Positions 591 to 41,938 of a stretch of DNA of 64,000 nt are shown piece by piece (positions within the stretch are counted from its first letter, which is position 1; every line of letters begins with the position of its first letter). Made by a program: the position numbers and the translations under genes. Location of the stretch: contig JAHFIQ010000001.1 of assembly GCA_023246355.1 (NCBI GenBank), forward strand, positions 350,247 to 414,246, written 5' to 3'. The DNA comes from Candidatus Uhrbacteria bacterium. Its GTDB lineage: Bacteria; Patescibacteriota; Patescibacteriia; UBA9934; GWF2-40-263. Below the pieces are notes generated by a model that saw nothing but the letters and a program-made list of their open reading frames with translations, made no database searches and had not been told where the DNA came from.

Positions 591-1511
591 ATGAAAAGAC
601 TGCAACCATTCTTGATCAGCCTTTTCACGATGCTTCTCATTCCATCGGTTGCTTCTGCTGTTTCTGTTGCACCAACAAATCTTGAACTCACAGCTGAGCG
701 TGGTCAAACCATTTCCTCCAGCATCACTGTCCTGAATACACAAGCCTCCGATCAAGAATATTTCGTAGATCTCATGAGTTTTAAACCAAAGGACGATTCT
801 GGTACACCAGAATTTTTTTCTTCAGACGACTTCGCAAATGATTTAACAGGTTGGATACTATTTGACAGCAAGTCTTACATTGTTCCAGCTCTTTCTTCCT
901 CCGAAATTCCATTCCAAGTTGTTGTTCCAGATGATGTTCCATCTGGTGGCTATTACGCTGCCGTAACAGTTTCACCCGCACCAGCAGATGTTGTTGCTGC
1001 TAATGGGGCGATCATTGAAGCAAAAACAGCTGTACTCGTGCTACTGACCGTGGAAGGCGAGACGCAAGAAGATCTTGAGCTGTTGGATTTTGCTAGCACG
1101 GGTGGAGCTTTCGATCTCCCGCGACGTTCATTTCAGTTCCGATTACAGAATCAAGGCAATGTTCATGTCACACCGGTTGGAAACATCAAACTGACAGGTT
1201 TGTTTGGCCAAACGATTCTTGACCTTGATGCAAACAAAGATGAAGGTCGAGTGCTTCCAGCATCGACACGGATGTTTGCTGTGACGTCCAGCGATGAATC
1301 AACAAGTTGGTACGACACCGTCGCTTTTCAGCTCAGTCACCTCGCGATTGGTCCGGTCACAGCCACACTCGATCTCACATACGGAGAAAGTGGAGCGATT
1401 CAATCCTCACTTTCATTTTGGGTATTTCCCTGGCAGCTTCTTGTCACGCTCGTGGGCTTGCTGATCGTCTTGTGCGTTGGGTATCGATTCCTTAGACGAA
1501 AACGCTTGTAA
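591..1511 (+). CDS. Cell-surface protein with N-terminal signal peptide and C-terminal transmembrane anchor plus basic tail
   Basis: N-terminus MKRLQPFLISLFTMLLIPSVASA is a typical signal peptide; C-terminus LLVTLVGLLIVLCVGYRFLRRKRL is a TM helix followed by positive residues; beta-rich middle. The architecture is reminiscent of DUF916/CscA-type anchored surface proteins (from memory, unverified). Confidence 0.6.
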   Translation: MKRLQPFLISLFTMLLIPSVASAVSVAPTNLELTAERGQTISSSITVLNTQASDQEYFVDLMSFKPKDDSGTPEFFSSDDFANDLTGWILFDSKSYIVPALSSSEIPFQVVVPDDVPSGGYYAAVTVSPAPADVVAANGAIIEAKTAVLVLLTVEGETQEDLELLDFASTGGAFDLPRRSFQFRLQNQGNVHVTPVGNIKLTGLFGQTILDLDANKDEGRVLPASTRMFAVTSSDESTSWYDTVAFQLSHLAIGPVTATLDLTYGESGAIQSSLSFWVFPWQLLVTLVGLLIVLCVGYRFLRRKRL

Positions 1512-4500: not shown

Positions 4501-4887
4501 GCACTTGCCTTTGCGATCATCCGTCCAACGCCTTGGTCAATCACCATGGTCTTCATCCAACTCGCGGTGTATCTGCTGGTGCGACGACTTGCCAAACCAT
4601 ACAAGCCCATGAACTGGGGAATCGTGTATGACAAAAACACGGGTCGGCCGTTAGCTCGTGTTGTCGCTCGTATCTTTGAGCCCAAGTACAACAAATTGCT
4701 CGAGACACAAGTGACAGATAGCAAAGGACGGTATGCGTTCTTGCTGGGACCAAACGAATACTTTGCGGTGTTTCAAAAAGATGGCTATCAGACCGCAGAA
4801 GTTCGACCGATCGATTACTCGGCACATGAAGAACCAGCGAACTTCGGTGAGACCGTTGCCCTTGAACTCAATCAAACCGCAACCTGA
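1477..4887 (+). CDS. Large multidomain envelope protein: signal peptide, 3 fibronectin-III-like repeats, acidic E/P-rich linker, two carboxypeptidase-regulatory-like (Cna-B-like) beta-sandwich domains interleaved with TM helices
   Basis: RR-containing signal peptide ...RRLIQTLTLAIVTFTMSAVVVSTANA (true start probably GTG 1519 or ATG 1579, since 1477 overlaps the upstream gene by 35 nt). Three repeats end in ATITWTT / ATVTWTT / IVLTWTN with a conserved Y..GLT.G.TYYF core. Segments DGTFAWYVPNGTYVVVVTAEGFE and REGRYYFLVSPGRYRLSVTKSGFE match the CarboxypepD_reg pattern. Several hydrophobic helices in the C-terminal third. Confidence 0.75.
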   Translation: MGIDSLDENACKKICVFLFRRLIQTLTLAIVTFTMSAVVVSTANAATITGVNDYPTTLQSSQAANHTVLFTTPTGAALGSTITLSFSTPFDTSTITEDDVDVADDGVDLTTAATCAGTEQASVSIASDVVTITICAGDGGAIAAASQITIEIGTNATSSGTGSNRITNPTSTGTYFLSVAGTFGDAGSIALPIAGDDSVSVTADVASRSSGTGTGGGSSPTSDTTAPTISNIVVSNVTETSATITWTTDESSTSSVSYGITSDADDSTSSDSSSTTSHSTTLTGLTAGETYYFTVSSTDSSGNSATSSVQSFTTLDDTGPVISNVEVVNITTTSATVTWTTDEAADSTVSYGETTSYDSSESDSSLVTSHSITLTDLTPGTTYDFQVLSSDFSGNQSYTDNDTFETDEDGTPTNVSDLAADAGDETIVLTWTNPDDEDLAGVLILVCVNEYPDGPNDEDCTEVDAGLAESYTLTGLTNGTTYYIGVFAYDDAGQFASGALVTAVPSASENEVPSEETTEAEEEPGTEEPGDEETSVPDSGTGEETTPGEEPSSGEDLTTGEASEEPTSLGAEDGTLSDADIQYFVEEESLELTTDTSVVEVLSESTVLISIPSSEISDDATSVLVTIGSETYLMVFNEESGSYEAEVMLSDADGVYTLTVTVASGDGSESVSSYLYIVNPGDVYQVVDDEEAAVADATVTLYEVVDGELIVWDGSPYGQENPTPTAADGTFAWYVPNGTYVVVVTAEGFETAQTSQLVIDNGIVNPRILLTALAVPEEEQGTALEEGETTSLIQNVLSVSSVEALQEALSQLRDIPGVETAAEISTPVLALGAGVSLVVLSLAYDFLSLLQYLFTAPLLFLWRRKRKGYGVVYNAIGKKPIDLALVRLYQLTNGEEATPRSGRLLQSRVTDREGRYYFLVSPGRYRLSVTKSGFEFPSEYLKGENTDGQYLDVYHGEVIEVKDKDAVITANIPMDPSQADAYQTPSAVVWHKRLRKLQHSFSALGIVAALAFAIIRPTPWSITMVFIQLAVYLLVRRLAKPYKPMNWGIVYDKNTGRPLARVVARIFEPKYNKLLETQVTDSKGRYAFLLGPNEYFAVFQKDGYQTAEVRPIDYSAHEEPANFGETVALELNQTAT
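2150..2990 (+). repeat. Three tandem FN3-like coding repeats of ~270-280 bp inside the 1136-aa protein
   Basis: Repeated protein motif (A/G)P(T/V)ISN(I/V)(V/E)V.N(V/I)T.TSAT(I/V)TWTTDE...SYG...Y.......H(S)(T/I)(T)LT(G/D)L(T)(A/P)G.TY(Y/D)F. Confidence 0.6.
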
Positions 4888-4899
4888 TCGCCCACATCT

Positions 4900-7800
4900 A
4901 TGTTCTTATCAGGGAGGAAACAATCTCTCGCCCTTGTCCTCATCACCCTCGTGTCGATGATGAGCTTTGTGTTTTCTTCCCAAGCCGCTGCGCCGACCAA
5001 CATCGTGACCTATCAAGGCCGATTGTTGAATTCAAATTCTGTCCCGGTTTCTGACACGAGCCTTTCCATGAAATTTTTCTTCTATACGGCTGTCACGGGT
5101 GGAACCTGTGTCTGGTCTAACTCTTCCGCGACATGCAACAGCAACACACCAGCTTCCACCACCGCTCGAACCGTCACACTCACCTCAGGACTCTTCACCC
5201 AAAATTTGGGCGACACGGGAGATTCCTTCGCCGCCATTTCCGATTCGATTTTTGCAGATAACTCAACCTTGTTTTTAGAAGTGATCGTTGGCAGTGAAAC
5301 GCTTTCCCCTCGTCGCCGACTCACCGCGGCTCCTTATGCTCTGAACGCACAGACATTGGATGGGATTGATTCTGGATCTTTTCTGCGCGACACAGGGGAT
5401 ACAGCCACGGGGGATTATGACCTGACCGGAGCCACTCTCTCGGGAGGTTCTCCGATTGTGTTGGAAGGTGCCTCCGCAAATAGCTTTGAAACAACACTGG
5501 CTCTGACAGATCCAACAGCTGATCGAACGATCACCTTTCAAAATGGCTCTGGCACGGTCGCGTTTTTGACAGACGTCACGGGTGGAGGTTTATGGGAGTC
5601 AGGCACATTTGTCTACGAAGATGATTCTGCTGTTGTGGTCGGCGCTGATGCCGCTTTCACGTATGCCAGTGGTGGTGTGGGAGATTTGCGTGTGGCAGAT
5701 CAGCTGGAAGTGCTTGATGATATTTTCGTTGATAATGATTTGGTTGTCGGCGCCTCGACGTCATCTACAGAAACGATTGCAAACAGTTCATTTAGTTTGG
5801 GCGGCAACGACTTCTTTGCGGCAAGTGATGTGGGTGTGGAAGGAAACGTCTATATCGACGGCGCGATTGATTTGGTTGGCACGGCGACGGTCGGTGACCT
5901 TGCCTGTACGGATTGTTTGGACTTTGCAGAACTTGTCGATGCCTTGTCTTTGGATGCCTCGACGTCCATAGCACTTGACGGAAGTGAAACGTTTTCGATT
6001 ACCAACGGCGGTACAGGCAATGTCATCACCAACCTCTCTTCCACGGGAGACTTTGTGATTCAAGATAATGGCGCGGCCATTCTCACGGTTGCGGACGATG
6101 ATGTTCTTACCTATTCAACGGACTTAACAACGACCAGTGCGATTGGATTCACAGGCAACAGTCTTACCACAGGAAGTCTGCTAAACCTTTCTGCCACAGG
6201 TCTCACAACCGGAACAGCTTTGACTGTGACGGCCAGCAATGTGAGCACAGCCAACTCGGCTTCAGTGCTGAATCGTTTCGTGTTGACCAACAGTCAATCG
6301 ACCATCGCCAATACAGGGATCACCGGTTTGTCTGTTGGGTTTACCAATGCCCCCTCCATTGCTGGAAACACAGAGCGAGTTGTGTCCATTAGCAACGAGT
6401 CCACAACCAACACAACAGATAACCTCGTTACAGCGTTGCTTGCTTTGGATAATGCTGATACATCGACGACGGGATCTACGGTTGTCACAGATGCGATCTC
6501 GATCGCCGTCTCAGGAGCGATTGCCAACGGCATCGTGGACGCGATCGACGCCTCGGATGCCAACATTACCAACGCCCTCAACATCGGAACCAACACGATT
6601 CTTGGTACGACCGGTGTGATTGATTTTAGCAGTTTTGATGTTGATGGGAGTGGGAATGTCACGGCGAATGATTTCATCTGCACGGACTGTGTGGACTTTA
6701 CCGAGATGATCGATGCCATGTCTTTGGATGCTTCAACATCGATCGCGATGGACGGTTCTGAAACCTACACCCTCACCAACGGCGGTACAGGCAATGTCGT
6801 CACCAACCTCTCCTCTACGGGAGACTTTGTTATCCAGGATAACGGTGCGGCCGTTCTCACCGTTGCCGATAATGATGTCTTTACCTATACAACGGATTTG
6901 ACGACCACCAGTGCGATGACACTTACAGGCAACAGCCTCACCACCGGGAGTCTTTTGAATCTGTCATCAACAGCTCTTACAACGGGTTCAGCCCTGAGTG
7001 TTGTGGCGACCAATGCCAACACAGCCAATTCCTCCACACGTTTGAGTCAATTCTCGTTTACGAACTCTCAAGCAACCGTTGCAAATGGAGATATTGCCGG
7101 ACTGTTTCTTAATTTTACGAACAGTCCATCGATTGGTGGCAACACCGAGCGTGCCATGTCGATTGTGAATGCTCCAACATCCAACACAACGGATAATGCC
7201 GTGGCTGCGCTTCTGTCTTTGGATAACGCTGATACGTCAGGAACAGGTTCTACGGTTATTACCGATGCCCTGTCGATCACGGTGTCAGGAGCGATTTCAG
7301 ATGGGATCGTGGACGCGATTGATGCTTCCGATAGCAACATCACTAACGCTCTCAATGTTGGTGCCAACACGATTACAGGAACGACCGCGGTGATTGACTT
7401 CAACAGCTTTGATGTGGATAACAGCGGTATTGTCACGGCGAGTGACTACGTGTGCACGGACTGTATCGACTTTGCTGAGCTCATCGATTCCATGTCTCTG
7501 GACGCGTCTACCTCTATTGCGATGGATGGCTCAGAAAACTTCACCGTGACCAATGGTGGAACAGGAAACATGGTTGTGAACCTGTCATCGACAGGCGACT
7601 TTGTGTTGCAGGATTCTGGATCACCCTTTTTCTCTATCAATGACAACAAAGTTATTTCTTATTCCACAGACCTTGCAACAAGCAATGCTGTGGCTCTCAC
7701 CGGCAACAGTCTTACCACCGCCAACCTGTTGACCCTGACAAGCACCGCACTCACGACAGGATCAGCGCTCTCAGTTACCGCCTCAAATACCAATACAGCC

Positions 7801-10800
7801 AATTCGATTTCGAGCATGGCCGTTTTTGCCCTTACCAACGCTCAATCAACAGTAGCCAATGATGATGTCAATGGTTTGGTTGTGAGGTTCACCAACAATC
7901 CGTCGGTTGCTGGAAACAATGAGCGCGCCATGGTGGTTACAAATCTTGCGACGAGCAATACCACAGACAACGCTGTCCAAGCTCTTCTCAATTTGGATAA
8001 TGGAGATACCAGCGCCACAGGTTCCACGGTTGTCACAAACGCCTTGATCGTCTCTGTTTCAGGATCGATTGCCGACGGCATTATTGATGCAGTCGATGCT
8101 TCTGACTCCAATATCACCAATGCTCTGAACATCGGATCAAACATCATTACAGGAACCACCGGTGTGATTGATTTCAATAGCTTTGATGTTGGACCGGTTG
8201 CTAGTGCCAATAGTGGGACGACAACTTCCATTGTTGATGTTGGATACGTCACTCCGGTGGATACCTCTGGAACAAATATTCACCAAGGCATCACTATTGA
8301 CATGGATATCGGTAACTCAACAGGCGGTACCAATAGTGTGAATGCACTTGAACTCGAGGGAATGACTGGAGATCCGGAGGTTGCAAACGTTCATGCGATT
8401 GATATCGGGGCTCTCACAGGATCTGCCGCGACAAATGAAACCGCTCTCCAAATTGGAACAGGGTGGGATGCGGATATTGCCTTCTTAAATGCCACTCAGG
8501 CAAGTCTGCGTATCCCAAATGGTTCACGACTTCAGTTTCAAGACTCGACGTCAACGGAAATTTTGACGCTTCAGGACGTTTCAAATTCTTTAAATCACAA
8601 CTTGGCCATTGATGCTGATACAGGGCTGTCATTTGATAGCAATGCGGATTCCGATGCAGACATCACGACTCCTACAGCCGAAGCTCTGCGCATCACGCCA
8701 GGTGGAGTTGGAGATGTTATTTTTACGATCGATGCAGACAGCAATGTCCAGATGACCGCAGGTGTTGCGCCGGGTGTGGACATGCTCTCGCTCTCAAACA
8801 GTGGTTTTGCAACAACCACAACGGATGTGAACGGGCTGCAAATTGATTTCAGTTCAACAGGTGCTGCCGCTCAGGCACTGTTTGTTGAAACGACGTATGT
8901 TGGTGGTGCGACAGATGCGCTTAACTTTGACGGTATTTTTATCGGAGATATCAATCCAACCAATGCCGCGGGGACGGACACGGTTGCGGGAATCCACATT
9001 GGAACCATCACAGATCCAGGCGCGAACATTACCTCCACTGGTCTTCGTATTGACGCAGGATATGATGCTAACATTGCCATCATTGACTCGTCATCTGTGT
9101 TCGATATCACCAACGGTGGCACGCTGGCGTTTCGAGACACCTCAAATACGATCATGCTCCTGACAGATAACGGTTCCGATGGGGTGCTGAGCATCAATAA
9201 CATTTCAACCGCTGATCCTGCGGTCAATGTGTACGACGTGGCTGTGAATACCACGATCGATATTGGTGGTGTGACGAACGATTCTGCCAACAGCGTGAAC
9301 ATTGCGACCAACGCGACCAGCGGAGACACGATTTCGATTGGAAACACGGCCGGCGGAACCAACGTCACGATCACGGCCGGTGGAACGATTGATTTGGAAG
9401 GGTCCGTGACAGCGGATTTGGCAGCCATTGGTGCCACACAGTTTGCGCTCTGTCACACCAATTCTGACACCAACGACGAACCGATCGGTGACTGTTCGGG
9501 TGCGCCAACCGCTGACTATGCGGAGCAATATCCTGTGGAGACTGGCATTTCGTATGGCGACATTGTGGTGCCTGGGGCGCGGGAAGTGACAACCACTGAA
9601 GGCCAGACCATTACACAACTTGTGAAATCTTCTGAGCCGTATCAAGGTCCCATCGCTGGAATCGTTTCCAATAACTACGGAGACTTTACCTCGGCTGGGT
9701 ACAACATTGAGGCGGGTGACAATCCCATGCCCATTGCCCTTGTCGGACGTGTTCCTGTGAAGGTGACAAACGAAGGCGGTGCCATTCAAGTAGGTGACTA
9801 TCTCACAACTTCTTCCACAGCTGGTCGTGCCATGAAAGCCAGTAAAGTCGGTCGCGTGATCGGCATGGCTTTGCAGAATTGGGATGGCGTGAGCGATACA
9901 ATCATGGTGCAGGTGAACAACTCTTGGTACATGGGAGAGGTGATTGGAACCGACGGTGTCTCAACGCTTGTCACGGACAATGTTGTTGTGTCCTCATTTG
10001 CAACCGCAACCGCTGAGGCACCGACCTTTGACTCCTACGGGCTCTCACTGCGAGGTTCTGTTTGGAATGGATCAGAAGCAGAAGCCGTGGAGATGATGAT
10101 GAAGAACGTTGTTGATAGTGAAGATGAGTATCGACTCAGCATTCGCAATACATCCGAAACCGAAGTTGCCTACATCACCGACGAAGGGACCATGAAGATT
10201 GCTGGTGACATGATCGTTGGTGGAAATTTGTATCCGTCGGATCGTGGAGTTCCTCAAACCGACAAATATATTTACTACGATGGATCAGAAGGGTCAGCTG
10301 GGGACTTCATGCGCACCAATGCCAAAGGTTGGTCCACGGGATCTTACGACTTTGCCGAAATGTTCCCGTCGTCTGAGACACTTGAGGCTGGTGAAGTAGT
10401 CGCGTTCTCCGGATCAGGCCATGACGTTATTCGTGCAACAGGTGCACAGGGAGAGCAACTTGCTGGTATCGTTTCCACACGTCCAGGATTTTTGGCTGGC
10501 GAGAACATCGAAGGTTCCTATCCAATCGCGCTTGCTGGCCGTGTCCCAACAAAGGTGAGTGAAGAGAATGGTGCGATCGCGATTGGCGATCCTCTGACAT
10601 CAAGTGCAACAACAGGCCTGGCCGTGAAGGCGAGTGAGAGTGGTCAGATTGTTGGTTATGCCTTGGAGGCGTATGACGGATCTCAGTCTGATGATCTGAT
10701 CCTCGTCTATGTGAATATCGGGTACTGGCAAGATGATACGGTGGTGCAAAACACAGCCTCAGAAGTTTCAGGCAATACAAATTTCTCTGCACTCAACATG

Positions 10801-11439
10801 ACCGGCAACATCTCAATGAACTCTTATGAGATAAACGGGATTGGGAAGCTCACCGGCATGGGAGATTCGTGGTCACTCGCATCCGACGGAACGCTCACAA
10901 CTTCCGGTTTGTTGAAGACGGTCATCGATTCTTATCAAAATGAAAAAGTCGAGACGGTCGCGGTGACCTCTCCTGAAGTGATGATTACACTCACTGGAAC
11001 GGCCGTTCTTGAAAACGATCAACTCGAAATTCGATTTGAAGATGTGATTCCTGAATACAATGATGTTATTTCTGCTGACGCGCCGATTCGCGTGTTTGTG
11101 ACGCCACATGGACCTGTTTCCTTGTACGTCTCTGAGTCTGACCAAAATCATTTCGTGGTGACGCGGTTCCAAGGTGACTTGGATGTTGAGTTCGATTGGA
11201 TGGTGAGCGCGTATCGAAAAGGATATGAACCTGAGGAGGAGGTAGAAGAGGTGGATGAGGTAGACATGGTAGACCCAGGCTTCAGCATGGGTGCGACTGA
11301 AGAAACTGAATCATCTGACACAGAATCAGAAATGACAGCCGATTCTGCATCTCCGGAGAGTCCGGACACAACCATTGTTGATCAAGTGATTGAATCTGAT
11401 GGCGGCGCAACAGCCGAGCCCGAGACACAATCACCCTGA
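4900..11439 (+). CDS. Giant (2179 aa) secreted repeat protein, putative adhesin or fibre-like surface protein with acidic C-terminal tail
   Basis: Signal peptide MFLSGRKQSLALVLITLVSMMSFVFSSQAAA. N-terminal head contains LNAQTLDGIDSGSFLRDTGD, reminiscent of phage tail-fibre/collagen-like 'TLDG.DSS.F' motifs (from memory). Three ~258-aa tandem repeats (CTDC.DF.E..D..SLDASTSIA.DGSE...TNGGTGN..TNLSSTGDFV.QD...). C-terminal duplicated ~75-aa domain (AGIVS...PIAL.GRVP.KV..E.GAI..GD.LT.S.T.G.A.KAS..G..G.AL...DG). Glu/Asp-rich tail. Confidence 0.8.
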   Translation: MFLSGRKQSLALVLITLVSMMSFVFSSQAAAPTNIVTYQGRLLNSNSVPVSDTSLSMKFFFYTAVTGGTCVWSNSSATCNSNTPASTTARTVTLTSGLFTQNLGDTGDSFAAISDSIFADNSTLFLEVIVGSETLSPRRRLTAAPYALNAQTLDGIDSGSFLRDTGDTATGDYDLTGATLSGGSPIVLEGASANSFETTLALTDPTADRTITFQNGSGTVAFLTDVTGGGLWESGTFVYEDDSAVVVGADAAFTYASGGVGDLRVADQLEVLDDIFVDNDLVVGASTSSTETIANSSFSLGGNDFFAASDVGVEGNVYIDGAIDLVGTATVGDLACTDCLDFAELVDALSLDASTSIALDGSETFSITNGGTGNVITNLSSTGDFVIQDNGAAILTVADDDVLTYSTDLTTTSAIGFTGNSLTTGSLLNLSATGLTTGTALTVTASNVSTANSASVLNRFVLTNSQSTIANTGITGLSVGFTNAPSIAGNTERVVSISNESTTNTTDNLVTALLALDNADTSTTGSTVVTDAISIAVSGAIANGIVDAIDASDANITNALNIGTNTILGTTGVIDFSSFDVDGSGNVTANDFICTDCVDFTEMIDAMSLDASTSIAMDGSETYTLTNGGTGNVVTNLSSTGDFVIQDNGAAVLTVADNDVFTYTTDLTTTSAMTLTGNSLTTGSLLNLSSTALTTGSALSVVATNANTANSSTRLSQFSFTNSQATVANGDIAGLFLNFTNSPSIGGNTERAMSIVNAPTSNTTDNAVAALLSLDNADTSGTGSTVITDALSITVSGAISDGIVDAIDASDSNITNALNVGANTITGTTAVIDFNSFDVDNSGIVTASDYVCTDCIDFAELIDSMSLDASTSIAMDGSENFTVTNGGTGNMVVNLSSTGDFVLQDSGSPFFSINDNKVISYSTDLATSNAVALTGNSLTTANLLTLTSTALTTGSALSVTASNTNTANSISSMAVFALTNAQSTVANDDVNGLVVRFTNNPSVAGNNERAMVVTNLATSNTTDNAVQALLNLDNGDTSATGSTVVTNALIVSVSGSIADGIIDAVDASDSNITNALNIGSNIITGTTGVIDFNSFDVGPVASANSGTTTSIVDVGYVTPVDTSGTNIHQGITIDMDIGNSTGGTNSVNALELEGMTGDPEVANVHAIDIGALTGSAATNETALQIGTGWDADIAFLNATQASLRIPNGSRLQFQDSTSTEILTLQDVSNSLNHNLAIDADTGLSFDSNADSDADITTPTAEALRITPGGVGDVIFTIDADSNVQMTAGVAPGVDMLSLSNSGFATTTTDVNGLQIDFSSTGAAAQALFVETTYVGGATDALNFDGIFIGDINPTNAAGTDTVAGIHIGTITDPGANITSTGLRIDAGYDANIAIIDSSSVFDITNGGTLAFRDTSNTIMLLTDNGSDGVLSINNISTADPAVNVYDVAVNTTIDIGGVTNDSANSVNIATNATSGDTISIGNTAGGTNVTITAGGTIDLEGSVTADLAAIGATQFALCHTNSDTNDEPIGDCSGAPTADYAEQYPVETGISYGDIVVPGAREVTTTEGQTITQLVKSSEPYQGPIAGIVSNNYGDFTSAGYNIEAGDNPMPIALVGRVPVKVTNEGGAIQVGDYLTTSSTAGRAMKASKVGRVIGMALQNWDGVSDTIMVQVNNSWYMGEVIGTDGVSTLVTDNVVVSSFATATAEAPTFDSYGLSLRGSVWNGSEAEAVEMMMKNVVDSEDEYRLSIRNTSETEVAYITDEGTMKIAGDMIVGGNLYPSDRGVPQTDKYIYYDGSEGSAGDFMRTNAKGWSTGSYDFAEMFPSSETLEAGEVVAFSGSGHDVIRATGAQGEQLAGIVSTRPGFLAGENIEGSYPIALAGRVPTKVSEENGAIAIGDPLTSSATTGLAVKASESGQIVGYALEAYDGSQSDDLILVYVNIGYWQDDTVVQNTASEVSGNTNFSALNMTGNISMNSYEINGIGKLTGMGDSWSLASDGTLTTSGLLKTVIDSYQNEKVETVAVTSPEVMITLTGTAVLENDQLEIRFEDVIPEYNDVISADAPIRVFVTPHGPVSLYVSESDQNHFVVTRFQGDLDVEFDWMVSAYRKGYEPEEEVEEVDEVDMVDPGFSMGATEETESSDTESEMTADSASPESPDTTIVDQVIESDGGATAEPETQSP
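5905..8228 (+). repeat. 3 tandem coding repeats of ~774 bp within the giant gene
   Basis: Unit starts (tgcacggactgt / tgtacggattgt encoding CTDC) at 5905, 6679 and 7454; the period is constant at 774-775 bp with high protein-level identity. Confidence 0.8.
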
Positions 11440-37204: not shown

Positions 37205-37236
37205 ACGCGCTGTCGAACATGGCAGCGCGTTTTGGT
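37205..37236 (+). terminator. Putative intrinsic terminator after rpoC
   Basis: Stem acgcgctg/cagcgcgt with a 10-nt loop, followed by ttttggtt. Confidence 0.45.
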
Positions 37237-37319
37237 TGAGCAGCCTTGACATGAGTGGTTGCTGCGGTTAAGCTCAGGCCTCGCGTTTTCGGACGCGATG
37301 CTCATTACAGGAGTCAATC

Positions 37320-38456
37320 ATGCCTCCAAAAAAGGCTCAAGTGGACCTGTGGCCAGATGAGCTCAGGTCTGCTCTCTCAGGCATACATGTCGACGACAAT
37401 GGGATTCAACAGAGCTGGGATGCTGTACTTGATCGTCTCCCCACCTTTGAGGAGATCATGCAGGTGACGTTTGCTCCTGAAGGACGCGCCTTGCCGTATG
37501 CTTTTGCATTCATTGCTGAACGTCTGCGGCCCTTTGTTCAGCTCCCCGTGGAGCTGGTCTCACGCAGATCATGGGAGACGGAAGCGCACTCACGCAAGGG
37601 AACGTTTCGTGTCATCTTCAGGTCCAGAGGGGTAGAACTTGCAGCCCCCAGCCAGATCTTCGGAATTGACTGTCAGAAATGTGTCAGCCTTTTGAAGGCT
37701 GCCAGGAAGAGGACAGGTCAAAAAGAGATCCGCGATCCTGACACGGGCTGCACCATCGCAACGCTTGATGCAAGGCACAACACCTTGCAGGTGCATTTCT
37801 GTGAGGTGGCACATCCGACTGAGGATTGGGGTGAGCGCCATCGTGAGATTTTTGCGTCTCTGGTGTGGCGCGTCATTCCCCTCTTACCCGAACCTCTGCT
37901 CACGCCAGAGCTCTGGGTGCAGCAAAACAAGGCATCACGCCGCGAAGCCGTTGAGCGGGTGTACCGTGCCTATCGAGTGCAGGCAAAAACGAGTCAGGAG
38001 GGAGATCTAGATGAACTCACTCGGCTGACCACGTCCTTGGCGGAAGTCGGTGTTGTTTCCAACCTTCAAGCAGAGGTTGCTCAGCTGCAGATCACGGTCC
38101 TTGGACTCACATCGCTTGTGAAGAAGCAGGAAGAAAAAATCAGGTCGGAGCTTGAAGCGCTGTTGAAGCGTTCGGATGTTGCTTCAATTCATCTGTGGGG
38201 ATCAGTGCTCGTGTGTGCTGTGGTGAAACCAGATTCTGCGTGGACGATTGTCGTGAACCGGGCACAGATAGGGGATCCGGTTCGTTGGTACAAGCATGAA
38301 GGGAGTACGCGCCAGGCGTATGCCCCGTCCCAGTACCGAATGCTCATTCCTCTTGTTGAACTGTTGAGCAAGGGGGAGTGGGGCACGGTCATCACAAGCG
38401 CGATTGCCGCAATCAGCACATCCCGCCTTCAACCCATCCACCTGCAAGAGGAGTAG
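37320..38456 (+). CDS. Hypothetical protein, first gene of the Ubl-conjugation operon
   Basis: aggag RBS 8 nt before the ATG; GC3-rich; central Cys/His cluster (CQKC...C...HFCEVAH); coiled-coil-like stretch (LQAEVAQLQITVLGLTSLVKKQEEKIRSELEALLKR). Its stop lies 3 nt before the JAB gene start. Confidence 0.55.
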   Translation: MPPKKAQVDLWPDELRSALSGIHVDDNGIQQSWDAVLDRLPTFEEIMQVTFAPEGRALPYAFAFIAERLRPFVQLPVELVSRRSWETEAHSRKGTFRVIFRSRGVELAAPSQIFGIDCQKCVSLLKAARKRTGQKEIRDPDTGCTIATLDARHNTLQVHFCEVAHPTEDWGERHREIFASLVWRVIPLLPEPLLTPELWVQQNKASRREAVERVYRAYRVQAKTSQEGDLDELTRLTTSLAEVGVVSNLQAEVAQLQITVLGLTSLVKKQEEKIRSELEALLKRSDVASIHLWGSVLVCAVVKPDSAWTIVVNRAQIGDPVRWYKHEGSTRQAYAPSQYRMLIPLVELLSKGEWGTVITSAIAAISTSRLQPIHLQEE

Positions 38457-38458
38457 AC

Positions 38459-39193
38459 ATGGTCAAACCCCCCAGAGCACCCATTCCGCTGATGACCAGA
38501 GCTTCGCCATCCACAACAGTGCGCGTGCTCGAACTTCCGCCCACGGTCTACTTCGCCAATCGTGCGATGGAAGACATGCGCATTCTCGTAGCCCTTTGCC
38601 CCGAGGAAGTGGGATGGTTGGGAACGGCCAGAAGGGTCGGCCGAACGTTCTACGTGGATGAGATCTTCTTGCCCAAGCAGCATGCAGGTCCTGCGCATAC
38701 CACCATCACCACCGAGGGACTGAGTCAGCTCATGGATGAGCTCACCCGTGCAGGCCGCGCCAAGCTTTTGGACCGTATGTTTTTCTGGGGTCACTCCCAT
38801 GCCAACATGCCGGCCGATTTCTCGGGCCAAGACGACCTGCAGATGGCCAAGCTCTCGAGGCATTCCCCCTGGTTCATCCGGGCGGTCTTGAACAAGTACG
38901 GAGACATGAAGGTGGATGTGTTCATGCGCGAAGAGGGCATGGCCTACTTGAACGTGCCATGGGTGGTTCACGCCCCTGTTCCCAAACAGCGCCTTGCCTT
39001 TTGGCAGGAGCGTCTGGCTCTGCAAATGCAAAGCCCTCCCAGGCGCAAGCACGGCCAAAAAGGTCTTCCTGCGCACATGGTTGGCAGAGGTGAAGCCGAA
39101 CTGGATTCCCAAGAAGTGTCAGAGGGTCTCGATCCTCCAGATGAAGCGCAGTGGGAAGCTGCGCTCGAACGTCTGGGAAGGGGGGAACCATGA
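38459..39193 (+). CDS. JAB/MPN (JAMM) metalloprotease, deubiquitinase-like
   Basis: Upstream Glu (CPEEVGWLG), then HSHANMPADFSGQD, which exactly fits H-x-H-x7-S-x2-D. gaggag RBS before ATG 38459; its stop overlaps the E1 start (ATGA). Confidence 0.8.
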   Translation: MVKPPRAPIPLMTRASPSTTVRVLELPPTVYFANRAMEDMRILVALCPEEVGWLGTARRVGRTFYVDEIFLPKQHAGPAHTTITTEGLSQLMDELTRAGRAKLLDRMFFWGHSHANMPADFSGQDDLQMAKLSRHSPWFIRAVLNKYGDMKVDVFMREEGMAYLNVPWVVHAPVPKQRLAFWQERLALQMQSPPRRKHGQKGLPAHMVGRGEAELDSQEVSEGLDPPDEAQWEAALERLGRGEP

Positions 39194-39885
39194 TCAGCAT
39201 TGCTCGTCATCACACCGTGTTTGATCCCAGGACCTTTGAGGAGAATCGGGTTGACGTGATTGGTGCCGGTGCGCTAGGATCCCGGCTGACCTTGGAACTT
39301 GCCAGGCTCGGGATTCAGGAAATTCATGTCTGGGACTTCGACAAAGTTTCGGACGTGAATCTTGCCAACCAGGCCTATGCCAGGAAGGATGTGGGCATGC
39401 CAAAGGTTCAGGCTCTCGCTCGTTTGGTGCTGGAGCACACCGGTGGTCATGTTGTTGCCCATGAAGAGGCTTGCACGGGAGAATCAGAATTGGGAGAGGT
39501 CGTCTTTCTCATGACTGATTCCCTTGTCTCGCGCCGTGAGGTCTTTGCGGGAGCTCTCAGGTTCAACCTCGTAACCCGGCGCCTCATCGAGGCGCGTCTG
39601 GGAATCGATCAGGGTCGGGTGTATTCACTCGATCCCAACCAGAGTGCCGATGTTGACGCCTACGCGCCGACCTTGAACGGCATCGCCAAGTTGGCGGTCA
39701 ATCCGTGTGGCTCTCCGATTTCCATCGGCGCCACAGCCGGCATGGCCGTCGCTCTTGCTACCTGGATGTTCATCCGATGGTGGGGAAAGGAACAAGATCA
39801 GACATCGACAGATGAACTGGAGAACGAAGTGGTTTTCGCCCTGCACCCTGTGATGGTCATGGGGAGCAGTTTCAACCAAACGTGA
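39190..39885 (+). CDS. E1-like ThiF/MoeB-family adenylyltransferase
   Basis: VDVIGAGALGSRLTLELARLG nucleotide-binding loop, WDFDKVSDVNLANQ (the D-x-D...N-L-x-x-Q ThiF signature), MPKVQALARLVLE. 232 aa, the size of a stand-alone MoeB/ThiF. Confidence 0.85.
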   Translation: MISIARHHTVFDPRTFEENRVDVIGAGALGSRLTLELARLGIQEIHVWDFDKVSDVNLANQAYARKDVGMPKVQALARLVLEHTGGHVVAHEEACTGESELGEVVFLMTDSLVSRREVFAGALRFNLVTRRLIEARLGIDQGRVYSLDPNQSADVDAYAPTLNGIAKLAVNPCGSPISIGATAGMAVALATWMFIRWWGKEQDQTSTDELENEVVFALHPVMVMGSSFNQT

Positions 39886-39915
39886 GTGGGCGATCACACA
39901 AAGACAGGAGTGGTC

Positions 39916-40185
39916 ATGGCAGGCAAGGATAAGGCGGGAGCGAAGAAGGCAGAAGCGAAGAAGGCGGAAGGCGGCAAGATCAGCCTCCAGGTGTTCCCTG
40001 GCAGGCGTGTGCAAGTGGACATCGAAGAGGGCGTCCCCTTCACCCTGGCCAAGCTGCTGGAACAGGAGGGCTTGGATGCGGCGCAGACGACCGTCAAGGT
40101 CAACGGTGAGGATGTCGCCGATCTCGAGCGTGTGCTCGTAAGCGGCGACAGCGTCGTTCTTCTCGAGAACGTCGAGGGCGGCTAG
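39916..40185 (+). CDS. Ubiquitin-like beta-grasp protein (ThiS/MoaD-like) ending in Gly-Gly
   Basis: ...KISLQVFPGRRVQVDIEEGVPFTLAKLLEQ...VKVNGEDVADLERVLVSGDSVVLLENVEGG followed by a stop codon, so the GG is exposed. N-terminal Lys/Ala-rich tail MAGKDKAGAKKAEAKKAEGGK. aggag RBS before ATG 39916. Confidence 0.8.
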   Translation: MAGKDKAGAKKAEAKKAEGGKISLQVFPGRRVQVDIEEGVPFTLAKLLEQEGLDAAQTTVKVNGEDVADLERVLVSGDSVVLLENVEGG

Positions 40186-40258
40186 GTCGCAGGGAACGAA
40201 AAACGGCGGGGCGCTTGTGGACGATCCGCGAGCCCCCGTTTTTACTTGAGGGAGGGTG

Positions 40259-41392
40259 ATGGTCATGAAAATCACGTTTGTCGGAAAGACACGATGGGAA
40301 CGGGCAAGGGAGGAACTCACCTCTAACATCCGGGAACACTTGTTTCCGGTCGTCCATAAGGACGTGGTCGTACATTTCCCCATGGAGGAATCAGAGCCTC
40401 ACGGCATTGAGCCCATGGATGGATTGCTCGAGGCGTCAGGGGCATTTCACTTGTTTCTCTTCGGGAGGTTTCTTCCCGGGTCTCACATTCTGAGCTCTCA
40501 AAGGTGGGGTTCCTACCGTACTGTGCTTGACGGAACACCCGTTGGATTTCCCATCTTCGTGCATGGAAGCCAGACGCCGATCGCTGAGTGGATAGGGAAT
40601 GTTGTCTGCTTGCGACTTCGAATGCAATACAGTGACGACTCACCCTATTCCCTCTGGGGCGAATTCGTTCGCTCTACCGCACAGACTCTGAGGAGTGCAC
40701 AGGGAGCAGATCCATCGCCTGTGGAGGGAGTAGGTTCAATCGCTCAGGCGTTGATGCCTTCTTCTTGGGCAGAGGAATGCAAGAAATGGCAGGCTCAATT
40801 TGACAACAGAGAAGGGAGAAGGGCTGACGCACTTAAACTCTTCCATCGTGCGACCGAAGAGGCCGCGCGTTTCGCTGCTCGAGTGCGTGAACAAACGGAA
40901 CAGGCGTTCGATACAAGTGAGTTCCAGGCCGAACTCGATCGTCTACGGGCGCATCCACTTTTTGATGACGCGTACTTTGTCCGAAACGGAGATCCTTCCG
41001 ACACAGACATTAAGTCTCCCGCGTTTGTGGTGAGGACCAAGGCCGTCGTCGTGAAGGTCAAAGCGCTCAACAGCGACGCCATGGAAGAGCGCCTGATCGG
41101 ACGATTCGAGATTTCCATTCCTCTTGATCCAAACCATGATTGGGGGGACTGCGTGCATTTTTACAACCTCGATCGATTGGTCGCCAATCAGCATGGTCCG
41201 CACATTGATGCAGATGGCTGTCCCTGCTTTGGCACAGGAACGTCGACCGTCGATAGGCTCTATGGGGAGGGACGCATCGCAGAGCTCGTCAAGTTCTGTC
41301 TTCACTACCTCACGCGAGTCAACACGGACGATCAGTGGGGGGAGAATATCCACAAGTGGCCCTTGGTTCAGGAAGCTCATCCTTCAAGCTAA
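40259..41392 (+). CDS. Protein with C-terminal UBC/E2-like domain and ~230-aa N-terminal extension of unknown function
   Basis: C-terminal beta-strands (AFVVRTKAVVVKVKAL, LIGRFEISIP, CVHFYN) followed by NQHGPHIDADGCPCFGTG, which fits the UBC HP(N/H)(I/V)-x4-G-C active-site pattern; a helix follows (RIAELVKFCLHYL). gagggaggg RBS. Assigned from the motif alone. Confidence 0.5.
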   Translation: MVMKITFVGKTRWERAREELTSNIREHLFPVVHKDVVVHFPMEESEPHGIEPMDGLLEASGAFHLFLFGRFLPGSHILSSQRWGSYRTVLDGTPVGFPIFVHGSQTPIAEWIGNVVCLRLRMQYSDDSPYSLWGEFVRSTAQTLRSAQGADPSPVEGVGSIAQALMPSSWAEECKKWQAQFDNREGRRADALKLFHRATEEAARFAARVREQTEQAFDTSEFQAELDRLRAHPLFDDAYFVRNGDPSDTDIKSPAFVVRTKAVVVKVKALNSDAMEERLIGRFEISIPLDPNHDWGDCVHFYNLDRLVANQHGPHIDADGCPCFGTGTSTVDRLYGEGRIAELVKFCLHYLTRVNTDDQWGENIHKWPLVQEAHPSS

Positions 41393-41396
41393 CGCA

Positions 41397-41425
41397 CACG
41401 GTCCCAGCGGCCGTGTTTTCTTTTT
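41397..41425 (+). terminator. Intrinsic terminator closing the Ubl operon
   Basis: Stem cacggtc...gccgtg (7 bp including a G-U pair), loop ccagc, then ttttcttttt. Confidence 0.7.
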
Positions 41426-41455
41426 GGGGTCATTCCATTAAAATAGGGAACAATT

Positions 41456-41938
41456 ATGCACGAAGCTCGCATTATCATGGGATTGGATCCAGGCTATGGA
41501 CGCATGGGGTTTGGGGTCATTGTCGTTGAAGGATCAAACATGGAACTGGTCGACTACGGCGTGATCACCACAACCAGTGGCGATGCGTTTGAAAATCGAT
41601 TGCTCCATATCGGCAATGACCTTCATGATTTATTTGCGCACCACGAGCCTCACGCGGTTGCAATTGAAAAACTTTTTTTTGGAAAAAGTTCTACGACCGC
41701 GATGAACGTGGCCCATGCCCGCGGTGTGGCCCTTCTCATGGCAGCACAATCTGGATGTCCGGTGTTTGAGTTCACACCAGCGCAAGTAAAAAAAGCCATT
41801 ACCGGAGACGGCAAGGCTCCCAAGATGGCCATGCAAAAAATGGTGATGCAACTGCTTGCTCTTCCCAAAATTCCCAAACCCGACGATGCCGCCGACGCGC
41901 TGGCGGTCGCGATCACAGCGAGTACGAAGAGGTGGTAA
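41456..41938 (+). CDS. ruvC: Crossover junction endodeoxyribonuclease RuvC
   Basis: IIMGLDPGYGRMGFGVI (first catalytic Asp), ...AIEKLFFGKS... (Glu), ...PKPDDAADALAVAI (C-terminal Asp). Confidence 0.9.
   Translation: MHEARIIMGLDPGYGRMGFGVIVVEGSNMELVDYGVITTTSGDAFENRLLHIGNDLHDLFAHHEPHAVAIEKLFFGKSSTTAMNVAHARGVALLMAAQSGCPVFEFTPAQVKKAITGDGKAPKMAMQKMVMQLLALPKIPKPDDAADALAVAITASTKRW

What the first reader, a model, noticed from the sequence alone, without database searches (positions are those of the whole stretch)
37248..41430. Complete ubiquitin-like conjugation cassette (unknown gene, JAB, E1, Ubl-GG, E2-like) inserted between rpoC and ruvC
Five co-directional genes are tightly coupled (3-nt gap; ATGA overlap) and bracketed by hairpin terminators at 37205-37236 and 41397-41425. 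Domain evidence read directly from the sequence:
- JAMM motif HSHANMPADFSGQD, with an upstream Glu;
- ThiF-type E1 (GAGALGS, and D-x-D...N-L-A-N-Q);
- an 89-aa beta-grasp protein whose ORF ends ...VEGG-stop, a conjugation-ready Gly-Gly, with an N-terminal Lys-rich tail;
- a 378-aa protein whose C-terminus has the UBC active-site pattern HGPHIDADGC after a beta-meander.

JAB, E1 and Ubl-GG together with an E2-like protein is the signature of bacterial Ubl-conjugation anti-phage systems (Bil / 6E / Bub-type, established family knowledge). Here it sits in a small, probably CPR-like genome, inside a high-GC island. Two features are not part of the minimal described architectures: the ~230-aa N-terminal extension on the E2-like protein, and the additional 378-aa lead gene.
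Basis: partly seen in the sequence, partly recalled or inferred. Interest (0 to 1): 0.85.

Follow-up and report, generated by a model that had tools for sequence, protein, structure and literature searches.

The report
Ubiquitin-like tagging operon, undescribed family
A small uncultured bacterium (Candidatus Uhrbacteria) carries a five-gene kit that most likely attaches a ubiquitin-like protein to other proteins and removes it again, and the kit belongs to a widespread bacterial operon family that I could not find described in any library I searched.

Summary
The five co-directional genes are real. They are g1 (37320-38456), a JAMM/JAB peptidase, a minimal 231-aa ThiF-type E1, an 89-aa beta-grasp Ubl ending GG-stop, and g5 (40265-41392).

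The C-terminal domain of g5 belongs to a large domain family absent from Pfam (695 hits). It aligns with eukaryotic E2 cores at 87-91% hhalign probability, against 0.9% or less in controls. The invariant Cys321 sits on the E2 catalytic Cys.

The "unknown lead gene" g1 is a paralogue of g5. It has the same N-domain (95.6%), a coiled coil, and an E2-like domain (85%) that has lost the Cys loop.

An active E2-like protein, a degenerate E2-like protein, JAB, the same small E1 and a Ubl recur together. I saw them in about 40 loci from Melainabacteria, CPR and other groups. Some loci have poly-Ubl precursors, and six have a Clp-type AAA+ gene next to E1.

No sulfur-transfer genes are linked. The defining features of Bil, Bub and CBASS are not met.

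The cassette diverges far faster than the adjacent ruvC (39-84% against 88-96% identity).

Conjugation chemistry and biological role are inferred, not shown. The g5 structure model was too poor to test the fold.

The parts
37205..37236 (+). Hairpin plus short T-run after rpoC; upstream boundary of the cassette
   Evidence: Read directly from the sequence. The consensus scan does not call it because the run has only 4 T.
37246..37274 (+). Weak promoter-like site: TTGACA, 17 nt, TAAGCT
   Evidence: Read from the sequence. The -10 hexamer matches only 3 of 6, and the scan does not call it. Low confidence.
37320..38456 (+). g1, 378 aa: Cys-less paralogue of g5. Family N-domain (37320-37814), coiled coil (37815-38165), degenerate E2-like domain (38166-38453) with 'YAPSQYRML' where the catalytic loop would be.
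   Evidence: - No Pfam, NCBIfam or PHROG hit.
- Four orthologues only, all Uhrbacteria.
- AF2 model pLDDT 65.
- hhalign of the C-domain against the E2-like family: 85%, E 6e-6, with an 8-residue deletion of the Cys loop.
- hhalign of the family N-domain profile against the g1 N-terminus: 95.6%, E 1.2e-8.
38459..39193 (+). JAMM/JAB metallopeptidase, 244 aa. Motif HSHANMPADFSGQD at 38792-38833; Glu50 within 38603-38617; disordered C-terminal tail.
   Evidence: - Pfam Prok-JAB E 5.5e-4, below the gathering score.
- E50, H112, H114, S122 and D125 are invariant in six homologues.
- The same JAB family sits next to the E1 in the related loci.
39190..39885 (+). Minimal ThiF-type E1, 231 aa. GAGALGS at 39262-39282; NLANQ at 39358-39372 (Asn where canonical E1s have Arg); Asp110; invariant Cys173 (39706-39708). 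No Zn CxxC pairs, no rhodanese, no separate Cys domain.
   Evidence: - Pfam ThiF E 1.9e-16.
- PADLOC Cap2-type E1-E2 models match only the E1 part, best E 1.7e-13.
- PDB hits: NEDD8 E1, MoeB, ThiF, MccB.
- Cys173 and N-x-A-N-Q are conserved in 23 non-redundant family E1s.
39916..40185 (+). Ubl, 89 aa: ThiS/MoaD-type beta-grasp ending VEGG-stop (GG codons 40177-40182), with a Lys/Ala/Glu-rich N-terminal tail (39916-39978).
   Evidence: - Pfam ThiS E 1e-4, 23.3 bits against a cut-off of 22.5.
- GG-stop is conserved in four orthologues and in L057.
- Relatives end in GN-stop or are tandem poly-Ubl.
40213..40243 (+). Conserved GC-rich hairpin plus TTTTT between the Ubl gene and g5; possible attenuator or internal terminator
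   Evidence: Called by the scan. The outer stem CGGGGC...GCCCCG and the T-run are kept in all four lineages. Function inferred.
40265..41392 (+). g5, 375 aa: predicted active E2-like enzyme. Family N-domain (40265-40639), coiled coil (40640-40954), E2-like domain (40955-41389) with His313 (41201-41203) and Cys321 (41225-41227) in 'GPHIDADGCPCFG', then 'VNTDDQWG' (41318-41341).
   Evidence: - Four orthologues by the word-indexed search.
- The exhaustive profile search finds 695 proteins, nearly all matching only the C-terminal domain.
- His is invariant and Cys is present in at least 90% of 46 diverse members.
- hhalign against E2 cores: 87.5-91.3%, Cys on UBE2D2 Cys85; controls 0.9% or less.
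- UQ_con is the only Pfam family hit by more than one member (2 of 46, E 0.018).
- UBE2A, UBE2L3 and UBE2N were the non-DARPin hits I saw in the PDB profile search, at E about 1-2.
41396..41426 (+). Terminator-like hairpin plus T-run after g5; downstream boundary. ruvC (41456-41938) follows as a separate unit.
   Evidence: Called by the scan. Conserved in four lineages.

Best explanation
**What it is.** The cassette is a self-contained, reversible ubiquitin-like protein-conjugation system. It belongs to an operon family distinct from Bil, Bub and CBASS.

**Proposed mechanism.**
1. The Ubl is made with a free Gly-Gly end, so it needs no processing.
2. The minimal ThiF-type E1, probably a homodimer, adenylates it. 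The E1 may also hold it on its single invariant Cys173.
3. The Ubl passes to Cys321 of the E2-like domain of g5. His313 stands where the Asn of the E2 'HPN' motif sits.
4. g5 works together with g1. g1 is a paralogue with the same N-domain and coiled coil, but its E2-like domain has lost the catalytic loop. The pair would resemble an E2/UEV pair such as Ubc13-Mms2.
5. The fast-evolving N-domains and coiled coils choose the target, and no separate E3 is needed.
6. The JAMM peptidase removes the tag. In relatives it would also cut poly-Ubl and GN-ended precursors.

**Most likely role.** I favour a conflict or anti-phage tagging function. A role in handing endogenous proteins to an unfoldase is the main alternative.

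**Shown here.** Gene content, homologies, conserved residues, paralogy of g1 and g5, and conserved co-occurrence across phyla.

**Inferred.** Every chemical step, the g1-g5 pairing, the targets and the biological role.
For: - **Domain assignments.** ThiF, ThiS and JAB profile matches. Catalytic motifs are invariant.
- **E2 assignment of g5.** hhalign gives 87.5% (E 3.6e-6, 118 columns) and 91.3% with -M 50. The family Cys aligns with UBE2D2 Cys85, and 'xPH(V/I)xxxGxxC' aligns with 'HPNIxxxGxxC'. The reversed E2 alignment gives 0.9%, 20 column shuffles give 0.8% or less, and unrelated alignments give 0.5% or less.
- **Weaker E2 support.** UQ_con is hit by 2 of 46 members. E2s were the non-DARPin PDB hits I saw.
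- **Operon family.** A DNA pattern for the E2-like motif found 38 genome loci. Of these, 37 carry the domain. Most also carry the same small E1 (E 1e-60 to 1e-94), the JAB and a Ubl wherever the 8-kb stretch reaches.
- **Active/degenerate pairing.** In 27 loci an active E2-like domain sits next to one lacking His and/or Cys.
- **Fusion.** In L018 and L041 the active and degenerate domains are fused in one protein, which supports physical cooperation.
- **No sulfur context.** No sulfur-transfer gene appears in any locus.
- **Conflict-like evolution.** Adjacent RuvC is 96/91/88% identical across lineages. E1 is 84/78/77%, JAB 61/62/57%, g5 68/53/46% and g1 67/41/39%. Divergence is fastest in the coiled coils and N-domains.
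- **Expansion and spread.** Several loci per Melainabacteria genome. Three tandem 1020-aa paralogues in L059. One copy on a 212-kb IMG/VR contig.
Against:
- With the PH...C motif removed, the hhalign probability falls to 10%. A profile truncated before helix 2 finds no PDB hit.
- The E1 lacks the canonical Arg of NLxRQ and has no dedicated Cys domain, so E1-to-E2 thioester transfer is uncertain. Bub systems show that such pathways can use other chemistry.
- No defence-system model matches g1 or g5.
- The window shows no defence island; the neighbours are rpoC and ruvC.
- tblastn finds no family member in the phage or plasmid collections.
- Six relatives link the operon to a Clp-type AAA+ gene, which points to proteostasis rather than defence.
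Confidence: 0.65

Rival explanations
1. Same conjugation chemistry, different role. The tag marks the cell's own proteins for unfolding or degradation, or regulates them, as a bacterial counterpart of ubiquitin-Cdc48/proteasome or Pup-Mpa. It would not act against phages.
For: - In six relatives at 45-54% mutual identity (85% for one close pair), from Obscuribacterales and Planktothrix, a ClpA/B/C-type double AAA+ gene lies directly after the E1 gene. It is co-directional, with gaps from -4 to 135 nt.
- The window cassette sits between housekeeping genes and is kept in four lineages of a reduced genome.
- The family is absent from the phage and plasmid collections.
Against: - No Clp-type gene is linked in the window or its three Uhrbacteria relatives.
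- The divergence relative to ruvC is very fast, and paralogues are expanded, which is unusual for core proteostasis.
- The distribution across phyla is patchy.
Confidence: 0.25
2. E2-independent conjugation, as with archaeal SAMP/UbaA/HvJAMM1 or Thermus TtuB. The E1 alone activates the Ubl and conjugation follows. g1 and g5 would be substrates, scaffolds or adaptors, not enzymes.
For: - The E1 is a minimal ThiF/MoeB-like protein, like UbaA.
- The E2 assignment of g5 rests on profile comparison only, and the structure model is poor.
Against: - An invariant His and a Cys present in at least 90% of members align with the E2 active site across a family of 695 proteins.
- Loss of exactly these residues in the partner paralogue fits an enzyme/pseudo-enzyme pair.
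- E2-like genes accompany this E1 family in essentially every locus seen.
Confidence: 0.12
3. A sulfur-carrier pathway. The Ubl-GG would be thiocarboxylated by the ThiF-like E1 for cofactor, tRNA or cysteine synthesis, with the JAB acting like Mec+ or QbsD.
For: - The best NCBIfam and Pfam matches of the E1 and Ubl are ThiF, ThiS and MoaD.
- JAB, E1 and a ThiS-like carrier occur together in the CysO/Mec+ and QbsE/QbsD pathways (established knowledge; Iyer et al. 2006, PMC1779556).
Against: - All E1 and Ubl NCBIfam matches lie far below their curated cut-offs.
- The E1 has no rhodanese domain.
- No ThiG/ThiH, MoaE, CysM, TtuA or siderophore gene is present in the window or in about 40 related loci.
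- Poly-Ubl precursors in relatives make no sense for a sulfur carrier.
Confidence: 0.05

Closest known systems
Bil (BilABCD; operon types 6D and 6C/CEHH), the bacterial ISG15-like anti-phage system
   Same: Separate Ubl, E2, JAB and E1 genes in one operon. No E3, so the E2 is presumed to pick targets. Cys-based E2. Relatives have Ubls with 1-3 tandem beta-grasp domains (PMC10557695 and PMC11601596).
   Different: [quoted passage not shown] Here the E1 is one 231-aa adenylation domain.
- BilB is a small stand-alone E2 with a CEHH motif or a His after the Cys. Here the E2-like domain has an invariant His before the Cys and sits after an N-domain and a coiled coil.
- A Cys-less paralogue accompanies the active E2-like protein here.
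- PADLOC does not recognise g1, g5, the JAB or the Ubl; its only matches are Cap2-type E1-E2 models on the E1 adenylation domain.
Bub (6E/DUF6527), bacterial ubiquitination-like operons
   Same: E1, E2, Ubl and peptidase functions in one operon. Variable Ubl architectures. An inactive-looking E2-like domain is part of the system.
   Different: - Bub uses Ubl-E2 and JAB-E1 fusions, or an E2-E1 fusion.
- Bub works through Ser/Tyr oxyesters and lacks catalytic Cys residues.
- Bub carries the DUF6527 serine protease BubE (PMC11601596).
- Here the genes are separate, both E1 and E2-like proteins have a conserved Cys, and no DUF6527 is present.
Eukaryotic E2/UEV pairs (Ubc13-Mms2/Uev1a) and coiled-coil RWD pairs of the kinetochore
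   Different: No detectable sequence membership in these families. The pairing here is inferred only from operon linkage and two fusion proteins. The N-domain has no counterpart.
Archaeal SAMP/UbaA/HvJAMM1 and Thermus TtuB/TtuC
   Same: A minimal MoeB/ThiF-like E1, a ThiS/MoaD-like Ubl ending GG, and a JAMM deconjugase.
   Different: Those systems have no E2 and double as sulfur carriers. Here two E2-like proteins are invariably linked and no sulfur-pathway gene is present.

Membership tests
Bil (BilABCD) | [quoted passage not shown] | tested here: not met
   The E1 is 231 aa with a single ThiF domain covering residues 17-161. All 23 family E1s have a similar size. The definition is from PMC11601596.
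Bil (BilABCD) | BilB-type E2 (CEHH, or His after the catalytic Cys), recognised by defence-system profiles | tested here: not met
   No PADLOC, NCBIfam or Pfam hit for g5 or g1. The conserved His lies 8 residues before the Cys. No bacterial E2 chain appeared among the PDB profile hits I read.
Bil (BilABCD) | Ubl plus JAB peptidase in the same operon | tested here: met
Bub (6E/DUF6527) | DUF6527 (PF20137) serine protease BubE | tested here: not met
   No such Pfam hit in any of the five proteins at E up to 1.
Bub (6E/DUF6527) | Ubl-E2 and JAB-E1 fusions (type I) or an E2-E1 fusion (type II); E1 and E2 lack a catalytic Cys | tested here: not met
   All five genes are separate. E1 Cys173 is invariant, and E2-like Cys321 is invariant in the four Uhrbacteria orthologues and present in at least 90% of the wider family.
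Type II CBASS (Cap2/Cap3) | E1-E2 fusion Cap2 with a CD-NTase and an effector | tested here: not met
   PADLOC E1-E2 models match only the E1 adenylation region. No CD-NTase or effector is adjacent.
UBC/E2 superfamily (fold level) | UBC core: helix 1, four-strand meander, HPN-type flap, catalytic Cys, helix 2 | tested here: inconclusive
   Profile-profile comparison supports it: 87-91%, Cys in register, controls below 1%. The predicted secondary structure fits. But the 3D model has pLDDT 50 and the fold searches are not informative. Pfam UQ_con is below threshold.
Pfam Prok-E2_A to Prok-E2_E (prokaryotic E2 families) | A match to one of the Pfam Prok-E2 profiles | tested here: not met
   None of the 46 diverse domain members hit any Prok-E2 family at E up to 10. 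A profile-profile test against these families could not be run.
ThiS/MoaD-ThiF/MoeB sulfur-carrier systems | Linkage to sulfur-acceptor enzymes (ThiG, MoaE, CysM, TtuA) or a rhodanese domain; equivalog-level match | tested here: not met
   NCBIfam scores are 65 against a cut-off of 159 (ThiF) and 34 against 266 (MoeB). No such neighbours appear in the window or in about 40 related loci.
PRTRC system | PRTRC ThiF plus a ParB-related protein and PRTRC proteins A-E | tested here: not met
   PRTRC_ThiF scores 31 bits against a cut-off of 144.75. No ParB-like neighbour is present.
The E2-like/JAB/small-E1/Ubl operon family defined here | Active E2-like protein (N-domain, coiled coil, PH...C domain), degenerate paralogue, JAB, roughly 230-aa E1 with N-x-A-N-Q and A/P-C-G, and a Ubl | tested here: met
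   All five components are present in the window. The same set is present in L005, L008, L009, L010, L014 and most of L015-L053.

The most novel reading that the evidence does not exclude
The cassette is a compact member of an undescribed bacterial ubiquitination-like system. Its hallmark would be an E2/pseudo-E2 heterodimer held together by coiled coils, acting as its own E3. Its Ubl in many lineages is made as a head-to-tail polyprotein capped by one Asn, like eukaryotic polyubiquitin. In a subset, its products go to a dedicated Clp-type AAA+ unfoldase. That would be a bacterial tag-and-unfold pathway analogous to ubiquitin-Cdc48/proteasome, found in Melainabacteria, CPR and other phyla.
Probability: 0.25. 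Interest if true: 0.9.

Novelty: new variant of a known kind. Interest (0 to 1): 0.7.

Why it matters
- Bacterial E1-E2-Ubl-DUB operons have only recently been shown to conjugate proteins. Three families (CBASS Cap2, Bil, Bub) have been worked out, and each revealed new chemistry.
- This window points to a further family, abundant in poorly studied phyla. It has a stripped-down E1, an E2-like domain that no curated library recognises, and a built-in active/inactive E2 pair. Relatives add polyubiquitin-style precursors and a linked AAA+ unfoldase.
- If the inferred mechanism holds, it offers a minimal system for asking how an E2 selects targets without an E3. It also lets one ask how a single-domain E1 hands a Ubl to an E2.
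- It would bear on whether tag-dependent unfolding arose in bacteria independently of Pup.
- It is one of the few candidate protein-modification or conflict systems retained in a reduced CPR genome.

Tried and rejected
**Searches that gave nothing useful.**
- Pfam, NCBIfam, PADLOC and PHROGs on g1, g5 and ten distant family members: no informative hit.
- phmmer of g5 against PDB: nothing.
- The word-indexed homologue search finds only four Uhrbacteria orthologues each for g1 and g5. With the domain alignment it found only two proteins.
- BLASTP and hhalign of the full-length g1 family against the g5 family: no similarity. Paralogy appeared only with deeper domain profiles.

**Structure.**
- AF2 of g5 from a 4-sequence alignment: pLDDT 50.
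- afdb50 was unavailable.

**PDB profile searches.**
- The E2-like domain profile is swamped by DARPin hits, because one helix mimics the ankyrin consensus.
- A profile truncated before that helix finds nothing.

**Locus and collection scans.**
A degenerate DNA pattern worked instead.
- Two metagenome pattern scans for the Uhrbacteria-type motif gave no hits, then three chance hits.
- tblastn of a typical domain against the phage and plasmid collections: no match.

**Ideas considered and rejected.**
- ruvC as part of the operon. A conserved terminator separates it, and the four lineages are so close (RuvC 88-96% identical) that shared synteny says nothing about function.
- A foreign high-GC island. 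The composition is not exceptional.

Full report
**1. The observation**

The region holds five co-directional + strand genes.
- g1: 37320-38456, 378 aa.
- JAB: 38459-39193, 244 aa, starting 2 nt after the g1 stop.
- E1: 39190-39885, 231 aa, with an ATGA overlap with JAB.
- Ubl: 39916-40185, 89 aa.
- g5: 40265-41392. The start shared by all orthologues gives 375 aa.

A hairpin follows rpoC at 37205-37236. A terminator-like hairpin plus T-run follows g5 at 41396-41426. Both that site and a further hairpin plus T-run between the Ubl gene and g5 (40213-40243) are conserved in four lineages. ruvC is therefore a separate unit, and g5 may be expressed at a different level from the first four genes.

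The GC content (0.55-0.57) is not exceptional for the window.

**2. The three recognisable proteins**

- The E1 matches Pfam ThiF (E 1.9e-16). It also matches the E1 part of Cap2-type models in PADLOC and, among solved structures, NEDD8-E1, MoeB, ThiF and MccB. Every curated NCBIfam match lies far below its cut-off.
- The E1 is a single adenylation domain. It has no Zn-binding Cys pairs, no rhodanese domain and no separate Cys domain.
- Across 23 non-redundant relatives the E1 keeps the glycine-rich loop, the catalytic Asp and one Cys (Cys173). It has N-x-A-N-Q where canonical E1s have N-L-x-R-Q.
- The Ubl matches ThiS just above Pfam's threshold and ends VEGG-stop.
- The JAB protein scores below Pfam's threshold. 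It has the complete JAMM signature (Glu50, His112, His114, Ser122, Asp125), invariant in six homologues.

**3. g5 is E2-like**

Word-indexed searches found only four orthologues, all Candidatus Uhrbacteria. An exhaustive profile search found 695 proteins at E 0.001 or better. Almost all match only the last 100-140 residues of g5.

That domain has the consensus 'H.IG.F.I.I...V.F.NL.R.V...(A)PHV...G.(A/P)C(L/F)G...LV..I.FLESVN..D.WG..I..WP'. A coiled coil usually precedes it. It has no Pfam, PHROG or PADLOC model.

In 46 diverse members the His is invariant and the Cys is present in at least 90%. Its last Cys is Trp in the orthologues, and the conserved one is Cys321 in 'PCFG'.

I ran hhalign of a 152-sequence domain alignment against eight human E2 cores.
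- Probability is 87.5% (E 3.6e-6, 118 columns), and 91.3% with -M 50.
- Helix 1, the meander, 'xPH(V/I)xxxGxxC' on 'HPNIxxxGxxC', helix 2 and the 'N..D' turn are all in register.
- The family Cys falls on UBE2D2 Cys85.
- The reversed E2 alignment scores 0.9%, twenty column shuffles score 0.8% or less, and unrelated alignments score 0.5% or less.
- Without the motif the probability drops to 10%, although the alignment stays collinear.

Weaker support comes from two places. UQ_con is the only Pfam family hit by more than one member (2 of 46, E 0.018). Once spurious DARPin matches are set aside, E2 enzymes were the PDB hits I saw (E about 1-2).

**4. g1 is a paralogue of g5 without the catalytic loop**

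- The g1 model (pLDDT 65) has an alpha/beta N-domain, a long coiled coil and a C-terminal meander plus two helices.
- Its C-domain aligns with the E2-like family at 85% (E 6e-6). An 8-residue deletion removes the Cys loop, leaving 'YAPSQYR'.
- The N-domain of g5 is itself a family-wide domain, with 207 instances after four search iterations. Its profile matches the N-terminal part of g1 at 95.6% (E 1.2e-8).

Both 'unexplained' features of the finding have one explanation. g1 and g5 share an N-domain, coiled-coil and E2-like architecture, and only g5 keeps the His and Cys.

**5. The operon family**

The same five genes, followed by ruvC, occur in three further Uhrbacteria lineages (L005, L008, L009). 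A more distant g5 homologue, P0009, is preceded by a Ubl ending ENVEGG-stop.

A distant member, P0117, lies in an operon with JAB, the same small E1, a 68-aa Ubl and three further E2-like paralogues, of which two are degenerate and one keeps the Cys.

A degenerate DNA pattern for 'APHV...G.ACLGN' found 38 loci among species-representative genomes. Most are Melainabacteria/Obscuribacterales. Others come from Saccharibacteria, a Cytophagia MAG, Gammaproteobacteria MAGs, Planktothrix, Thermoanaerobaculia and Anaerolineaceae.

Local HMM scans show the domain in 37 of the 38. Wherever the 8-kb stretch reaches far enough, the same E1 family (E 1e-60 to 1e-94), the JAB and a Ubl are present too. The typical order is Ubl, large E2-like, small E2-like, JAB, E1.
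- The large protein always has the intact PH...C motif.
- The small partner has usually lost the His and/or the Cys, in 27 loci by my count.
- In L018 and L041 the intact and degenerate domains are fused in one protein.

No thiamine, molybdopterin, cysteine, tRNA-thiolation or siderophore gene is linked anywhere.

**6. Further features of relatives**

- Ubl genes outside the Uhrbacteria end in (R/K)GN-stop. Several are tandem poly-Ubls in which every repeat ends RPVRGN. That is the layout of eukaryotic polyubiquitin with a blocking residue, and it gives the JAB a processing role. The window Ubl needs no processing and instead has a Lys-rich tail.
- In six loci at 45-54% mutual identity (85% for one close pair), a ClpA/B/C-type double AAA+ gene (AAA_2, AAA_lid_9, ClpB_D2-small; no Clp_N hit) lies directly after the E1.
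- One genome has three tandem 1020-aa E2-like paralogues.
- One operon lies on a 212-kb IMG/VR contig next to an SSB gene.
- tblastn finds no member in the phage or plasmid collections.

**7. Evolutionary rate**

| Protein | Identity to the window across the three other lineages (%) |
|---|---|
| RuvC (adjacent) | 96 / 91 / 88 |
| E1 | 84 / 78 / 77 |
| Ubl | 72 / 72 / 70 |
| JAB | 61 / 62 / 57 |
| g5 | 68 / 53 / 46 |
| g1 | 67 / 41 / 39 |

Within g5 and g1 the coiled coils (27-53%) and N-domains (33-80%) change fastest, and the E2-like domains least (60-82%). Together with paralogue expansion and the patchy distribution, this pattern is what conflict systems show. It does not prove a conflict role.

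**8. Mechanism and rivals**

I consider a reversible Ubl conjugation cascade most likely (confidence 0.65). The E1 adenylates the Ubl. The Ubl passes to g5 Cys321, possibly via E1 Cys173. g5 acts with g1 as an E2/pseudo-E2 pair whose variable parts choose the target. The JAB reverses the mark. Every chemical step is inferred.

For the role I favour conflict or defence. The AAA+ linkage keeps an endogenous tag-and-unfold role alive (0.25). E2-independent SAMP-like conjugation (0.12) and sulfur transfer (0.05) are less likely.

**9. Comparison with known systems**

The system works like Bil: separate Ubl, E2, JAB and E1, Cys-based, no E3. It fails Bil's defining features, the multidomain BilD and a BilB-type E2. 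It fails Bub's (fusions, oxyester chemistry, DUF6527) and CBASS's (Cap2 fusion, CD-NTase). Definitions are; tests are.

Six text searches, and reading of the 2006 census and two of the 2023-2024 preprints, found no description of this family. The library is incomplete, so prior description cannot be excluded.

I rate it a new variant of a known kind, with interest 0.7.

Noticed in passing
L023:4334-6775, L024:874-3135, L026:49-2397, L044:3917-6316, L046:1656-4106, L049:1282-3654: A ClpA/B/C-type double AAA+ gene (754-817 aa; AAA_2, AAA_lid_9, ClpB_D2-small; no Clp_N hit) lies directly downstream of the E1 gene in six related operons. It is co-directional, with gaps from -4 to 135 nt. This suggests coupling of the Ubl tag to an unfoldase.
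   Followed up: partly
L017:5181-6086, L033:2740-3273, L043:2953-3468, L050:2-463: Relatives encode tandem poly-Ubl proteins in which each beta-grasp repeat ends RPVRGN. Single Ubls end (R/K)GN-stop. This is a polyubiquitin-like precursor layout with a blocking Asn. Only the Uhrbacteria type ends GG-stop and carries a Lys-rich N-tail.
   Followed up: partly
L018:5152-7275 (-), L041:2545-4530 (+): An intact (APHV...ACLGN) and a degenerate (APQV...AFLSE) E2-like domain are fused in one polypeptide. The fusion supports physical cooperation between the active and inactive paralogues.
   Followed up: partly
L059:3734-13069 (GCA_964343715.1): Three tandem paralogous genes of about 1020-1032 aa lie opposite a unit made of ThiF, a 299-aa gene and a 560-aa gene. 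The third gene (P0146) has an E2-like C-terminus; the other two were not checked. This is a strong paralogue expansion.
   Followed up: no
L053:6566-9849 (IMG/VR UViG_3300037067_019009, 212 kb): An E2-like, JAB, E1 and Ubl operon, with a second JAB-like gene at 1800-2777, lies on a contig classed as viral. Its neighbours are an SSB gene and ORFans. I did not establish whether this is a jumbo phage.
   Followed up: partly
window 41318-41341 and the helix before it (g5 residues about 338-359): The E2-like helix and turn 'LV.L.I.FLESVN..D.WG' mimic the ankyrin/DARPin repeat consensus. This produced dozens of spurious DARPin hits in the PDB profile search.
   Followed up: yes
window 39358-39372: The whole E1 family has N-(I/L/V)-A-N-Q where ThiF, MoeB and Uba enzymes have N-L-x-R-Q. 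The ATP-binding Arg is replaced by Asn in all 23 relatives examined.
   Followed up: partly
window 40213-40243: A GC-rich hairpin plus T-run between the Ubl gene and g5 is conserved in four lineages, although one lineage has an internal deletion. It may be an attenuator that sets the Ubl:E2 ratio.
   Followed up: partly
window 4900-11439 and 1477-4887: A 2179-aa ORF has no Pfam match. The neighbouring 1136-aa ORF has fibronectin-III and CarboxypepD_reg domains. They are probably large surface proteins, as is typical of CPR genomes.
   Followed up: no
L005:17947-18879: In the most divergent Uhrbacteria lineage the upstream neighbour is not rpoC. A phage-type integrase gene lies about 7 kb downstream of ruvC. 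Synteny beyond the cassette plus ruvC is not conserved.
   Followed up: no
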